Positions 9,522-19,212 of a stretch of DNA of 64,000 nt are shown one piece after another (the stretch's first letter is position 1; each line of letters opens with the position of its first letter). This stretch comes from Eledone cirrhosa (lineage: Eukaryota), in the NCBI GenBank assembly GCA_964016885.1, contig OZ024742.1, forward strand, positions 153,574,001 to 153,638,000, written 5' to 3'. The notes below the pieces were generated by a model that saw nothing but the letters and a program-made list of their open reading frames with translations, ran no database searches and had not been told where the DNA came from. The translations under genes were made by a program, and so were the position numbers.

Positions 9522-12500
9522 ATTGGAATAAATGCTCTGAAATAGCGATATATATGTGAATATAGACATAGAATATTCGAAAATATTCTGTATGTTTATA
9601 ATAAACATTTTGAAGACCTAATCGCTATAGAATAGAATACGTCACGTATTACAATTAGATTCTCGATAAAAGCAAGGGAAGTAATCTACGCGTTTCATTC
9701 TTATTAGAAATCTTCAGGACTACATATCCAGTGCTTTTATCGAGAATGACACAGCTAGAGACTTATAGAATACTTAGCTGTGTACAGGAACTGGTTTGAA
9801 AGAGCGGTTGCCGGTCCGGCAGAAATTAGAAATTGGAATAAATGCTCTGAAATAGCGATATATATGTGAATATAGACATAGAATATTCGAAAATATTCTG
9901 TATGTTTATAATAAACATTTTGAAGACCTAATCGCTATAGAATAGAATACGTCACGTATTACAATTAGATTCTCGATAAAAGCAAGGGAAGTAATCTACG
10001 CGTTTCATTCTTATTAGAAATCTTCAGGACTACATATACAGTGCTTTTATCGAGAATGACACAGCTAGAGACTTATAGAATACTTAGCTGTGTACAGGAA
10101 CTGGTTTGAAAGAGCGGTTGCCGGTCCGGCAGAAATTAGAAATTGGAATAAATGCTCTGAAATAGCGATATATATGTGAATATAGACATAGAATATTCGA
10201 AAATATTCTGTATGTTTATAATAAACATTTTGAAGACCTAATCGCTATAGAATAGAATACGTCACGTATTACAATTAGATTCTCGATAAAAGCAAGGGAA
10301 GTAATCTACGCGTTTCATTCTTATTAGAAATCTTCAGGACTACATATCCAGTGCTTTTATCGAGAATGACACAGCTAGAGACTTATAGAATACTTAGCTG
10401 TGTACAGGAACTGGTTTGAAAGAGCGGTTGCCGGTCCGGCAGAAATTAGAAATTGGAATAAATGCTCTGAAATAGCGATATATATGTGAATATAGACATA
10501 GAATATTCGAAAATATTCTGTATGTTTATAATAAACATTTTGAAGACCTAATCGCTATAGAATAGAATACGTCACGTATTACAATTAGATTCTCGATAAA
10601 AGCAAGGGAAGTAATCTACGCGTTTCATTCTTATTAGAAATCTTCAGGACTACATATCCAGTGCTTTTATCGAGAATGACACAGCTAGAGACTTATAGAA
10701 TACTTAGCTGTGTACAGGAACTGGTTTGAAAGAGCGGTTGCCGGTCCGGCAGAAATTAGAAATTGGAATAAATGCTCTGAAATAGCGATATATATGTGAA
10801 TATAGACATAGAATATTCGAAAATATTCTGTATGTTTATAATAAACATTTTGAAGACCTAATCGCTATAGAATAGAATACGTCACGTATTACAATTAGAT
10901 TCTCGATAAAAGCAAGGGAAGTAATCTACGCGTTTCATTCTTATTAGAAATCTTCAGGACTACATATCCAGTGCTTTTATCGAGAATGACACAGCTAGAG
11001 ACTTATAGAATACTTAGCTGTGTACAGGAACTGGTTTGAAAGAGCGGTTGCCGGTCCGGCAGAAATTAGAAATTGGAATAAATGCTCTGAAATAGCGATA
11101 TATATGTGAATATAGACATAGAATATTCGAAAATATTCTGTATGTTTATAATAAACATTTTGAAGACCTAATCGCTATAGAATAGAATACGTCACGTATT
11201 ACAATTAGATTCTCGATAAAAGCAAGGGAAGTAATCTACGCGTTTCATTCTTATTAGAAATCTTCAGGACTACATATCCAGTGCTTTTATCGAGAATGAC
11301 ACAGCTAGAGACTTATAGAATACTTAGCTGTGTACAGGAACTGGTTTGAAAGAGCGGTTGCCGGTCCGGCAGAAATTAGAAATTGGAATAAATGCTCTGA
11401 AATAGCGATATATATGTGAATATAGACATAGAATATTCGAAAATATTCTGTATGTTTATAATAAACATTTTGAAGACCTAATCGCTATAGAATAGAATAC
11501 GTCACGTATTACAATTAGATTCTCGATAAAAGCAAGGGAAGTAATCTACGCGTTTCATTCTTATTAGAAATCTTCAGGACTACATATCCAGTGCTTTTAT
11601 CGAGAATGACACAGCTAGAGACTTATAGAATACTTAGCTGTGTACAGGAACTGGTTTGAAAGAGCGGTTGCCGGTCCGGCAGAAATTAGAAATTGGAATA
11701 AATGCTCTGAAATAGCGATATATATGTGAATATAGACATAGAATATTCGAAAATATTCTGTATGTTTATAATAAACATTTTGAAGACCTAATCGCTATAG
11801 AATAGAATACGTCACGTATTACAATTAGATTCTCGATAAAAGCAAGGGAAGTAATCTACGCGTTTCATTCTTATTAGAAATCTTCAGGACTACATATACA
11901 GTGCTTTTATCGAGAATGACACAGCTAGAGACTTATAGAATACTTAGCTGTGTACAGGAACTGGTTTGAAAGAGCGGTTGCCGGTCCGGCAGAAATTAGA
12001 AATTGGAATAAATGCTCTGAAATAGCGATATATATGTGAATATAGACATAGAATATTCGAAAATATTCTGTATGTTTATAATAAACATTTTGAAGACCTA
12101 ATCGCTATAGAATAGAATACGTCACGTATTACAATTAGATTCTCGATAAAAGCAAGGGAAGTAATCTACGCGTTTCATTCTTATTAGAAATCTTCAGGAC
12201 TACATATCCAGTGCTTTTATCGAGAATGACACAGCTAGAGACTTATAGAATACTTAGCTGTGTACAGGAACTGGTTTGAAAGAGCGGTTGCCGGTCCGGC
12301 AGAAATTAGAAATTGGAATAAATGCTCTGAAATAGCGATATATATGTGAATATAGACATAGAATATTCGAAAATATTCTGTATGTTTATAATAAACATTT
12401 TGAAGACCTAATCGCTATAGAATAGAATACGTCACGTATTACAATTAGATTCTCGATAAAAGCAAGGGAAGTAATCTACGCGTTTCATTCTTATTAGAAA

Positions 12501-15500
12501 TCTTCAGGACTACATATACAGTGCTTTTATCGAGAATGACACAGCTAGAGACTTATAGAATACTTAGCTGTGTACAGGAACTGGTTTGAAAGAGCGGTTG
12601 CCGGTCCGGCAGAAATTAGAAATTGGAATAAATGCTCTGAAATAGCGATATATATGTGAATATAGACATAGAATATTCGAAAATATTCTGTATGTTTATA
12701 ATAAACATTTTGAAGACCTAATCGCTATAGAATAGAATACGTCACGTATTACAATTAGATTCTCGATAAAAGCAAGGGAAGTAATCTACGCGTTTCATTC
12801 TTATTAGAAATCTTCAGGACTACATATCCAGTGCTTTTATCGAGAATGACACAGCTAGAGACTTATAGAATACTTAGCTGTGTACAGGAACTGGTTTGAA
12901 AGAGCGGTTGCCGGTCCGGCAGAAATTAGAAATTGGAATAAATGCTCTGAAATAGCGATATATATGTGAATATAGACATAGAATATTCGAAAATATTCTG
13001 TATGTTTATAATAAACATTTTGAAGACCTAATCGCTATAGAATAGAATACGTCACGTATTACAATTAGATTCTCGATAAAAGCAAGGGAAGTAATCTACG
13101 CGTTTCATTCTTATTAGAAATCTTCAGGACTACATATCCAGTGCTTTTATCGAGAATGACACAGCTAGAGACTTATAGAATACTTAGCTGTGTACAGGAA
13201 CTGGTTTGAAAGAGCGGTTGCCGGTCCGGCAGAAATTAGAAATTGGAATAAATGCTCTGAAATAGCGATATATATGTGAATATAGACATAGAATATTCGA
13301 AAATATTCTGTATGTTTATAATAAACATTTTGAAGACCTAATCGCTATAGAATAGAATACGTCACGTATTACAATTAGATTCTCGATAAAAGCAAGGGAA
13401 GTAATCTACGCGTTTCATTCTTATTAGAAATCTTCAGGACTACATATACAGTGCTTTTATCGAGAATGACACAGCTAGAGACTTATAGAATACTTAGCTG
13501 TGTACAGGAACTGGTTTGAAAGAGCGGTTGCCGGTCCGGCAGAAATTAGAAATTGGAATAAATGCTCTGAAATAGCGATATATATGTGAATATAGACATA
13601 GAATATTCGAAAATATTCTGTATGTTTATAATAAACATTTTGAAGACCTAATCGCTATAGAATAGAATACGTCACGTATTACAATTAGATTCTCGATAAA
13701 AGCAAGGGAAGTAATCTACGCGTTTCATTCGTATTAGAAATCTTCAGGACTATATATCCAGTGCTTTTATCGAGAATGACACAGCTAGAGACTTATAGAA
13801 TACTTAGCTGTGTACAGGAACTGGTTTGAAAGAGCGGTTGCCGGTCCGGCAGAAATTAGAAATTGGAATAAATGCTCTGAAATAGCGATATATATGTGAA
13901 TATAGACATAGAATATTCGAAAATATTCTGTATGTTTATAATAAACATTTTGAAGACCTAATCGCTATAGAATAGAATACGTCACGTATTACAATTAGAT
14001 TCTCGATAAAAGCAAGGGAAGTAATCTACGCGTTTCATTCTTATTAGAAATCTTCAGGACTACATATCCAGTGCTTTTATCGAGAATGACACAGCTAGAG
14101 ACTTATAGAATACTTAGCTGTGTACAGGAACTGGTTTGAAAGAGCGGTTGCCGGTCCGGCAGAAATTAGAAATTGGAATAAATGCTCTGAAATAGCGATA
14201 TATATGTGAATATAGACATAGAATATTCGAAAATATTCTGTATGTTTATAATAAACATTTTGAAGACCTAATCGCTATAGAATAGAATACGTCACGTATT
14301 ACAATTAGATTCTCGATAAAAGCAAGGGAAGTAATCTACGCGTTTCATTCGTATTAGAAATCTTCAGGACTACATATCCAGTGCTTTTATCGAGAATGAC
14401 ACAGCTAGAGACTTATAGAATACTTAGCTGTGTACAGGAACTGGTTTGAAAGAGCGGTTGCCGGTCCGGCAGAAATTAGAAATTGGAATAAATGCTCTGA
14501 AATAGCGATATATATGTGAATATAGACATAGAATATTCGAAAATATTCTGTATGTTTATAATAAACATTTTGAAGACCTAATCGCTATAGAATAGAATAC
14601 GTCACGTATTACAATTAGATTCTCGATAAAAGCAAGGGAAGTAATCTACGCGTTTCATTCTTATTAGAAATCTTCAGGACTACATATCCAGTGCTTTTAT
14701 CGAGAATGACACAGCTAGAGACTTATAGAATACTTAGCTGTGTACAGGAACTGGTTTGAAAGAGCGGTTGCCGGTCCGGCAGAAATTAGAAATTGGAATA
14801 AATGCTCTGAAATAGCGATATATATGTGAATATAGACATAAAATATTCGAAAATATTCTGTATGTTTATAATAAACATTTTGAAGACCTAATCGCTATAG
14901 AATAGAATACGTCACGTATTACAATTAGATTCTCGATAAAAGCAAGGGAAGTAATCTACGCGTTTCATTCTTATTAGAAATCTTCAGGACTACATATCCA
15001 GTGCTTTTATCGAGAATGACACAGCTAGAGACTTATAGAATACTTAGCTGTGTACAGGAACTGGTTTGAAAGAGCGGTTGCCGGTCCGGCAGAAATTAGA
15101 AATTGGAATAAATGCTCTGAAATAGCGATATATATGTGAATATAGACATAGAATATTCGAAAATATTCTGTATGTTTATAATAAACATTTTGAAGACCTA
15201 ATCGCTATAGAATAGAATACGTCACGTATTACAATTAGATTCTCGATAAAAGCAAGGGAAGTAATCTACGCGTTTCATTCTTATTAGAAATCTTCAGGAC
15301 TACATATCCAGTGCTTTTATCGAGAATGACACAGCTAGAGACTTATAGAATACTTAGCTGTGTACAGGAACTGGTTTGAAAGAGCGGTTGCCGGTCCGGC
15401 AGAAATTAGAAATTGGAATAAATGCTCTGAAATAGCGATATATATGTGAATATAGACATAGAATATTCGAAAATATTCTGTATGTTTATAATAAACATTT

Positions 15501-19206: not shown

Positions 19207-19212
<6 letters not shown>
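17991..19212 (+). repeat. Inverted arm of the 310-bp array, about 3.9 copies (HHR on plus strand)
   Basis: Reverse complement of the monomer starting at 17991, 18301, 18611 and 18921; ends in (TA)n at attcacatatatat. Confidence 0.97.
18111..18153 (+). ncRNA. Type I hammerhead ribozyme (also 18421-18463, 18731-18773, 19041-19083)
   Basis: gtagtc CTGAAGA tttctaataagaat GAAA cgcg TA gattac; predicted cleavage after GUA at 18147. Confidence 0.8.

What the first reader, a model, noticed from the sequence alone, without database searches (positions are those of the whole stretch)
9522..19212. A 9.7-kb satellite with a hammerhead ribozyme in every 310-bp unit (31 HHRs): retrozyme-like circular-RNA element
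Seen: each complete monomer has stem I guaguc/gauuac, core CUGAAGA, stem II uucu/agaa, GAAA, palindromic stem III ACGCGU and a GUA cleavage triplet, with no credible ORF. Known: tandem non-coding type I HHR monomers (newt satellite 2, Schistosoma Sm-alpha, cricket pDo500, animal non-LTR retrozymes) self-cleave into unit-length RNAs that can circularise, and palindromic stem III HHRs work as dimers, which a tandem transcript favours. Inference: this locus yields 310-nt linear or circular RNAs and is a non-autonomous retroelement. I do not recognise this family, and I cannot confirm novelty without a search.
Basis: partly seen in the sequence, partly recalled or inferred. Interest (0 to 1): 0.92.

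Follow-up and report, generated by a model that had tools for sequence, protein, structure and literature searches.

The report
Two-armed hammerhead retrozyme with Penelope footprint
This is one insertion of a young, non-coding jumping repeat whose 310-base unit carries a self-cutting RNA motif; the class is already known in animals, but its mirror-image insertions suggest that a Penelope-type enzyme copies one small RNA circle twice at once.

Summary
The 31 type I hammerhead motifs are real, but the locus is not a one-way satellite. It has two divergent arms: 27 hammerheads on the minus strand, 4 on the plus, joined 5'-to-5', with both 3' ends in (TA)n. The family is dispersed and very young: 15,895 unit matches and 1,015 end junctions in a 3.0-Gb genome. 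Other insertions repeat the plan: one arm ends at unit position 165, the other at about 130-139. That is the 'tail' plus inverted copy known from Penelope-like elements (PLEs), and coding PLEs in this window show it too. In 44 two-armed insertions (21 haplotypes), both arms and nearly all units share one haplotype, which favours rolling-circle reverse transcription of one monomer, probably a circle. A sister family at about 64% identity keeps the hammerhead by covariation (U3-A8 core, other palindromes). The dimer's lowest-energy fold is a double hammerhead. Cleavage, expression, circles and the autonomous partner are not shown. Verdict: new family of animal non-LTR retrozyme, a known class; its value is unusually clean genomic evidence on how PLEs mobilise it.

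The parts
9522..17992 (-). Long arm: 27.3 head-to-tail 310-bp units, 27 hammerheads (cleavage nucleotides at 17747, 17437 ... 9687); 3' end at unit position 165, 5' end at position 65 (position 1 = first base after the predicted cut)
17991..19216 (+). Short arm: 3.95 units, 4 hammerheads (cuts predicted after 18147, 18457, 18767, 19077); 5' end at position 154, 3' end at position 130-139, merging with the TA run
17991..17992 (.). 5'-to-5' junction of the two arms, 2-nt (AT) overlap
   Evidence: junction overlaps at other loci
9522..9556 (-). Penelope-type 'tail': unit positions 131-165; 140-165 are present at this end only, 131-139 are an AT run that cannot be told from the target at the other end
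   Evidence: tail defined in PMC8557442 and PMC11167929
18087..18175 (+). Example type I hammerhead domain: 16-bp outer stem, internal loop, 6-bp stem I, core 18117-18123, stem II, GAAA, palindromic stem III, cut predicted after 18147
18206..18382 (+). Example of the structured module (unit positions about 59-235) shared with the sister family; it holds both inferred reverse-transcription start sites and is the inferred binding site of the mobilising protein
   Evidence: function inferred
9506..9521 (.). Left (AT)n target run, itself the end of an older PLE terminal fragment (9347-9521)
19209..19234 (.). Right (AT)n target run

Best explanation
A single recent insertion of a non-autonomous, hammerhead-bearing retroelement (animal non-LTR retrozyme) written into a (TA)n run by the reverse transcriptase-endonuclease of a Penelope-like element. 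Proposed cycle. (1, inferred) An array is transcribed into a multimer. (2, fold shown, activity inferred) Neighbouring hammerheads pair through ACGCGU as a double hammerhead and cut after GUA, giving 310-nt monomers; a host ligase closes them, and a lone hammerhead in the circle cannot form stem III, so the circle is stable. (3, footprint shown, enzyme inferred) A PLE protein binds the structured module, nicks both strands of (TA)n and primes two cDNAs at two fixed internal sites about 35 nt apart (130-139 and 165). (4, strongly suggested) Both cDNAs are copied from the same unit-length template for a random number of turns. (5, suggested) The two cDNA 3' ends join, often through 1-5 nt of microhomology, and fill-in leaves two divergent arms with the tail on one.
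For: Dispersed family: 15,895 exact matches to an internal 30-mer, 1,015 exact tail-to-TA junctions, 1,361 exact copies of this window's HHR variant; reversed-pattern controls 0. Architecture: 9 of the first 11 HHR-selected clusters on contig C1 are two-armed, each with one end at 165-168 and one at 130-139. Of 40 tail-selected loci, 36 are two-armed, 2 single-armed, 2 undetermined; the second arm's end, mapped in 34, lies at 118-139 and never at 165. 5' ends are spread over the unit. 15 of 22 clean joins overlap by 2 nt or more, against 18% expected. Two insertions of one coding PLE family and one of another, in this window, show the same divergent arms with a one-sided tail. Haplotypes: 44 two-armed insertions, 21 fixed haplotypes; 39 of 44 have no non-fixed variant seen twice; two random insertions share a haplotype 8.6% of the time; singleton rate 0.04%. 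Non-fixed variants: 38 in one arm only, 6 shared in register. Ribozyme: core CUGANGA intact in 524 and GAAACGCGUA in 523 of 526 units, with common variation confined to N7, loop II, the base of stem II and wobble or bulge changes in stem I. The unconstrained minimum-energy fold of a window dimer is the double hammerhead. The sister family has a different hammerhead at the same place: U3-A8 core in 20 of 21, three interchangeable stem II helices, and a perfect 12-nt stem III palindrome in 13 of 21, in three versions.
Against: No cleavage or RNA data. 8 of 9 Xenopus retrozyme dimers did not cleave in vitro, and hammerhead cleavage was dispensable for an anole PLE in vitro, where unprocessed RNA was the main template. 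No autonomous partner found: three coding PLE families from the window do not share the module (90 loci, best hit in a PLE's own sequence E=0.025). Five of 44 insertions are mixed: L040 switches haplotype at the same register in both arms, as a linear multimer would give; L206 switches in one arm only; this window's long arm has two variants recurring in 5 and 3 scattered units, which a single circle cannot give. Units within an insertion are not independent, and 0 of 24 fixed variants in the 12 core positions is not significant alone (about 0.9 expected).
Confidence: 0.68

Rival explanations
1. Same PLE-driven insertion, but the template is an uncleaved linear multimer transcribed from an existing array, read twice from two start sites in the same unit. 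The hammerhead and circles are incidental to transposition.
For: Frangieh et al. found unprocessed RNA the dominant substrate and no RNA-seq ends at the cut site. L040 shows the same haplotype switch at the same distance from the 3' end in both arms. Homogeneous parents would give homogeneous daughters.
Against: It cannot by itself fix new variants in every unit of both arms (21 haplotypes in 44 insertions), nor restore array length over generations. Parental singletons should be shared in register: 6 shared sites in 3 insertions against 38 unshared. L206 breaks register.
Confidence: 0.2
2. The template is a cleaved linear 310-nt monomer and the enzyme jumps end-to-end on it repeatedly; no covalent circle is needed.
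For: Gives the same single-unit bottleneck as a circle. Two fixed one-base insertions lie within 3 nt of the predicted cut site.
Against: End-to-end jumps are expected to leave scattered extra or missing bases at the cut site (own knowledge of R2-type enzymes); in 526 units the junction is almost invariant within insertions (the filter drops units with more than 8 differences).
Confidence: 0.07
3. A DNA-level satellite or eccDNA-spread repeat derived once from a PLE terminal repeat and amplified by unequal crossing-over or reintegration; the hammerhead is a relic.
For: Proposed as a route for retrozyme arrays in the 2026 preprint. The scattered recurrent variants in this window's long arm suggest some local amplification after insertion.
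Against: Fixed, asymmetric 3' ends in (TA)n, varied central junctions, and the same geometry as coding PLEs; compensatory changes keep the hammerhead in two families.
Confidence: 0.05

Closest known systems
Metazoan non-LTR retrozymes (Cervera and de la Pena 2020, PMC7229834; coral, mussel, axolotl; newt satellite 2)
   Same: Non-coding tandem units of 150-450 bp, GC under 50% (34% here), one type I hammerhead per unit, palindromic stem III. The U.U pair at the base of stem II matches axolotl HHR_Amex2. That paper proposes circular RNA templates and PLE mobilisation.
   Different: Circles and cleavage were shown there and are untested here. In the sections I read, no divergent two-arm insertions, fixed 3' ends, tail or per-insertion haplotypes are described. 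Sequence is unrelated as far as I could test (no Dfam or Repbase here).
Retrozymes as non-autonomous PLE derivatives (Li, Clavereau and Pollet 2026, bioRxiv 10.64898/2026.07.22.740005)
   Same: Same conclusion on the mobilising class; similar unit sizes and array lengths.
   Different: Their evidence is co-occurrence and homology to PLE terminal repeats in Xenopus, and they suggest local amplification by unequal crossover. Here the evidence is the insertion footprint and haplotype pattern, and arrays appear to arrive ready-made; homology to a coding PLE was not found.
Endonuclease-bearing Penelope-like elements (Craig et al. 2021, PMC8557442; Frangieh et al. 2024, PMC11167929; Arkhipova et al. 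2013, PMC3846280)
   Same: 5'-truncated inverted copy joined head-to-head, 30-40-bp tail at one end, (TA)n targets, hammerhead upstream of two internal reverse-transcription start sites.
   Different: No ORF. Both arms are long multimers of one short unit. The varied, microhomology-joined centres fit two target-primed cDNAs better than the antisense self-priming proposed in PMC3846280.
Non-autonomous Chlamys elements such as MRC1 (passage in PMC8557442)
   Same: Non-autonomous PLE parasites with multicopy head-to-tail insertions.
   Different: Chlamys elements mostly lack hammerheads and resemble their autonomous partners at the 3' end; no such partner was found here.

Membership tests
Animal non-LTR retrozyme | Tandem non-coding unit of 150-450 bp, low GC | tested here: met
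   310 bp, 34% GC, longest ATG-started frame 30 codons
Animal non-LTR retrozyme | One type I hammerhead motif per unit | tested here: met
   31 of 31 complete positions in the window; core intact in 524 of 526 units across loci. No Rfam hammerhead hit
Animal non-LTR retrozyme | Dispersed multi-copy family without LTR structure | tested here: met
   1,015 end junctions and 15,895 unit matches; no terminal direct repeats apart from the units
Animal non-LTR retrozyme | Self-cleavage of multimeric transcripts | not testable with these tools
   Only folding and covariation
Animal non-LTR retrozyme | Expression as unit-length linear and circular RNA | not testable with these tools
   No raw RNA reads were available to lay
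Non-autonomous Penelope-like element | Inverted 5'-truncated copy joined at the 5' end | tested here: met
   Window; 9 of 11 HHR-selected and 36 of 40 tail-selected loci
Non-autonomous Penelope-like element | 30-40-bp tail at one end only | tested here: met
   Ends at 165-168 versus 130-139, a 26-38-nt difference; second arm never at 165 in 34 mapped cases
Non-autonomous Penelope-like element | AT-rich or (TA)n target | tested here: met
   3' ends run into TA repeats at the loci examined; the tail-selected set was chosen for this, the 11 HHR-selected clusters were not
Non-autonomous Penelope-like element | Terminal sequence shared with a coding PLE of the same genome | tested here: inconclusive
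   No match in 90 loci of three coding families; a motif search that excluded both retrozyme families gave 45 hits that I could not fetch; the genome holds many more PLE candidates
Non-autonomous Penelope-like element | Target-site duplication | tested here: inconclusive
   Hidden by the TA run on both sides
Dimer-dependent (double) hammerhead | Unstable monomeric stem III with a palindrome that pairs between two motifs | tested here: met
   ACGCGU cannot close a hairpin; the dimer's minimum-energy fold pairs the two palindromes; sister family keeps palindromes by compensatory change. Prediction only

The most novel reading that the evidence does not exclude
Each two-armed insertion records a dimeric PLE enzyme priming both strands of the cut target at two sites 35 nt apart on one 310-nt RNA circle, both subunits rolling round it together and even changing circles in step (L040), and the two cDNAs then joining end to end. 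This would be one mechanism for the tandem, inverted and tail features of Penelope-like elements, and direct genomic evidence that ribozyme-made circular RNAs are transposition templates in animals.
Probability: 0.4. Interest if true: 0.8.

Novelty: new member of a known kind. Interest (0 to 1): 0.57.

Why it matters
The element class is known. Two linked questions are still open in the papers I read: whether retrozyme circles are really the templates for new insertions, and how Penelope-like elements make their tandem, inverted, tailed insertions. This family offers at least a thousand nearly unmutated insertions whose haplotypes act as barcodes of the template molecule, so both questions can be tested by computation on one assembly and by a simple in vitro assay with a 310-nt RNA. 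It also makes up roughly 5 Mb of multi-kilobase perfect inverted repeats in the genome (15,895 x 310 bp), a possible source of double-stranded RNA.

Tried and rejected
Rfam: nothing at gathering score in the window, one chance hit at E=5. Expression: no RNA holder listed. Laying four coded runs gave contigs only: X1 has 597 pieces like a genomic repeat; X4, X5 and X6 each hold one closed 340-nt contig, which tandem DNA and a circular RNA would both give, and the run types are not on record, so I draw nothing from it. Autonomous partner: not found; further genome stretches could not be taken, so the 45 hits are unread and are probably point mutants of the two retrozyme families. Pfam on five window PLE frames gave one sub-threshold GIY-YIG hit. 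A-to-I editing as source of the fixed variants: 6 A>G against 3 T>C among 22, too few. My first arm-mapping script fragmented the arms and was replaced; a hammerhead tally regex returned nothing and was redone. In one search, 39 of the junctions were analysed, 22 were clean joins (one of them, L196, a hairpin artefact) and 17 had inserted bases or failed anchoring, including the window's own. In one search one of five input stretches (L081) was mis-placed, so only the F1-versus-sister hairpin comparison is used. In one search, 12 of 30 loci gave a full unit for alignment (one is the main family, one has an internal deletion, one is mis-cut) and 21 of 30 matched the hammerhead pattern. A regex count of the sister family's short ends failed. 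Earlier scan notes: none by sequence or place. Literature searches for an octopus or cephalopod case or for two-armed retrozyme insertions listed none; subscription papers, Dfam and Repbase were not searchable, and I did not open any supplements (those of the bioRxiv preprint are closed; Cervera 2020 figures S6 and S9 may bear on novelty).
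Full report
Observation. Tandem Repeats Finder splits the region into two 310-bp arrays of opposite orientation, 9522-17992 and 17991-19216. The predicted cuts after 18147 and 18457 are right. The motif is not chance: 16 of 20,000 shuffled units pass a looser test, and the surrounding 96 nt fold at z = -5.9, with a 16-bp outer stem extending stem I. Rfam does not detect it. The unit is 34% GC and non-coding. 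Below, position 1 is the first base after the predicted cut.

Anatomy of the insertion. The arms diverge: their 5' ends meet at 17991-17992 with a 2-nt overlap, and both 3' ends run into (AT)n. The long arm ends at position 165 and the short arm at 130-139, where the unit's own AT run merges with the target. The left TA run is the end of an older PLE fragment.

The family. The window lies in a 3.0-Gb genome. Exact patterns give 15,895 internal unit matches, 1,015 position-165-to-TA junctions and 1,361 copies of this window's hammerhead variant, with 0 in the reversed controls. Of the first 11 clusters on contig C1 picked by the hammerhead alone, 9 are two-armed, each with one end at 165-168 and one at 130-139. 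Of 40 loci picked by the 165 junction and fetched at about 8 kb, 36 are two-armed, 2 single-armed and 2 undetermined; the other arm's end was mapped in 34 and lies at 118-139 (values under 130 come from private variants that stop the exact match), never at 165. 5' ends fall all over the unit. Among 22 clean central joins, 15 overlap by 2 nt or more, against 18% expected (17 of 39 analysed joins had inserts or failed anchoring). Median arms are 5.0 and 3.0 units, so this 31-unit copy is among the longest seen.

This is the Penelope footprint. Craig et al. 2021 (passages and the Hydra section read) describe an inverted 5'-truncated copy, a 30-40-bp tail at one end and (TA)n targets. Frangieh et al. 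2024 (main text read) showed that a PLE protein nicks both strands and starts reverse transcription at two internal sites whose interval is the tail. Coding PLEs in this same window show divergent arms with a one-sided tail at 35300-40300 and 46863-54114, as does a short copy at 19450-20280. The genome holds many intact PLE frames, for example a family with an 832-codon frame whose RWR, DKT and CxCx5C motifs match the Hydra clade as defined. None of three families tested shares the retrozyme's module, so the partner is unnamed.

Template. In 44 two-armed insertions with both arms at least 150 bp, I found 21 haplotypes of variants fixed across all units of both arms. Two random insertions share a haplotype 8.6% of the time, yet 39 of 44 insertions have no non-fixed variant seen twice; the test is weak for a few very short arms. 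Singletons run at 0.04%, so the family is very young. Non-fixed variants are nearly always in one arm only (38 against 6 shared in register). Fixing a new variant in every unit of both arms needs a one-unit bottleneck, which rolling-circle copying of a monomer provides and a linear multimer does not. Against this: L040 changes haplotype at the same register in both arms, L206 in one arm, and the window's long arm has variants at positions 269 and 296 in 5 and 3 scattered units. Template switching, re-priming at a broken palindrome, later unequal exchange or assembly error could explain these; I could not tell them apart.

Ribozyme. Across 526 units the core is CUGANGA in 524 (N = U 372, A 138, C 14) and GAAACGCGUA is intact in 523; common variants change N7, loop II, the U.U pair to A-U, or stem I by wobble or a one-base bulge. 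These units are not independent. Stronger is a sister family (about 320 bp, 61-66% identity, 1,158 pattern hits that include a few main-family variants, one copy at 40448-41051). It shares positions 59-235, with compensatory changes in two hairpins, and has a different hammerhead at the same place: a U3-A8 core in 20 of 21 copies, a covariation already reported in PLE hammerheads (Cervera and de la Pena 2014, first two of four parts read), stem II in three compensating versions, and a perfect 12-nt stem III palindrome in 13 of 21, with even the would-be loop changing as a palindrome. The unconstrained minimum-energy fold of a window dimer is the double hammerhead. Activity is still unproven: 8 of 9 Xenopus dimers did not cleave (Li et al. 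2026, text read through the discussion), and cleavage was dispensable for the anole PLE in vitro.

Comparison and novelty. It works like, and on every feature testable here belongs to, the animal non-LTR retrozymes (Cervera and de la Pena 2020; abstract, passages, two of three parts of Results and the Discussion read), which already proposes circles as templates and PLEs as helpers. Arkhipova et al. 2013 (passages) explain head-to-head PLE structures by self-priming; the varied microhomology joins here fit two target-primed cDNAs better. Eight searches listed no paper on two-armed, tailed retrozyme insertions or on per-insertion haplotypes; supplements, subscription journals, Dfam and Repbase were not seen. 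The host was not determined; an octopus-like cephalopod is my untested guess from recall of genome size and TA-rich composition. Earlier scan notes report similar PLE-footprinted tandem repeats in other genomes; they are unchecked leads and suggest the footprint is widespread.

Verdict. Real and well supported as a young retrozyme insertion made by a Penelope-type enzyme (about 0.9); a circular monomer as template about 0.7. New member of a known kind, interest 0.57, carried by the mechanistic test it offers.

Noticed in passing
window 40448-41051: Two-armed copy of an older sister retrozyme family (about 320-bp unit, U3-A8 hammerhead with 12-nt palindromic stem III, same tail module).
   Followed up: yes
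window 59648-61000: A third hammerhead-bearing non-coding family: 511-bp unit holding a TA run, palindrome ACUAGU, motifs at 59834 (-), 60191 (+), 60702 (+), two divergent arms with a one-sided tail; no sequence likeness to the 310-bp unit.
   Followed up: partly
window 30915-33700, minus strand; L104-L133: PLE family with Hydra-clade motifs and many identical intact 832-codon frames genome-wide; its 5' region has a hammerhead-like motif with a C4 core variant and palindrome ACAGCUGU.
   Followed up: partly
window 46863-54114: Large inverted pair of a second Hydra-like PLE, with a hammerhead-like motif near each end (46970 -, 54008 +) and a tail of about 70 nt on one arm.
   Followed up: partly
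window 35300-40300, 19450-20280, 21713-22619, 9347-9521: Copies of a PLE family with long N/T-rich inserts and a tail of about 50 nt; the studied array sits in the TA run at the end of one fragment.
   Followed up: partly
window 26057-29870: Inverted copy of a PLE family with DKG and CX4CxxC motifs (Neptune-like), 784-codon intact frames elsewhere.
   Followed up: partly
L040 2509-8901 and L206: Insertions that switch haplotype part-way: L040 at the same register in both arms, L206 in one arm; inner parts of both arms match. Unexplained.
   Followed up: partly
window 18278-18315 (unit positions 131-168): The AT run and a YYANWYY-like word about 30 nt downstream could be a TATA/initiator pair, as suggested for rotifer PLE repeats; low information in AT-rich DNA, consensus recalled.
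   Followed up: no
L037 2440-6752: The same two-armed insertion, with the same junction, appears twice beside an N gap: local duplication or assembly artefact.
   Followed up: no
window 2557-2738, 4175-4367, 7905-8096, 20409-20603, 50515-50695, 59231-59380 and others: A short interspersed repeat of about 190 bp in ten or more copies, SINE-like.
   Followed up: no
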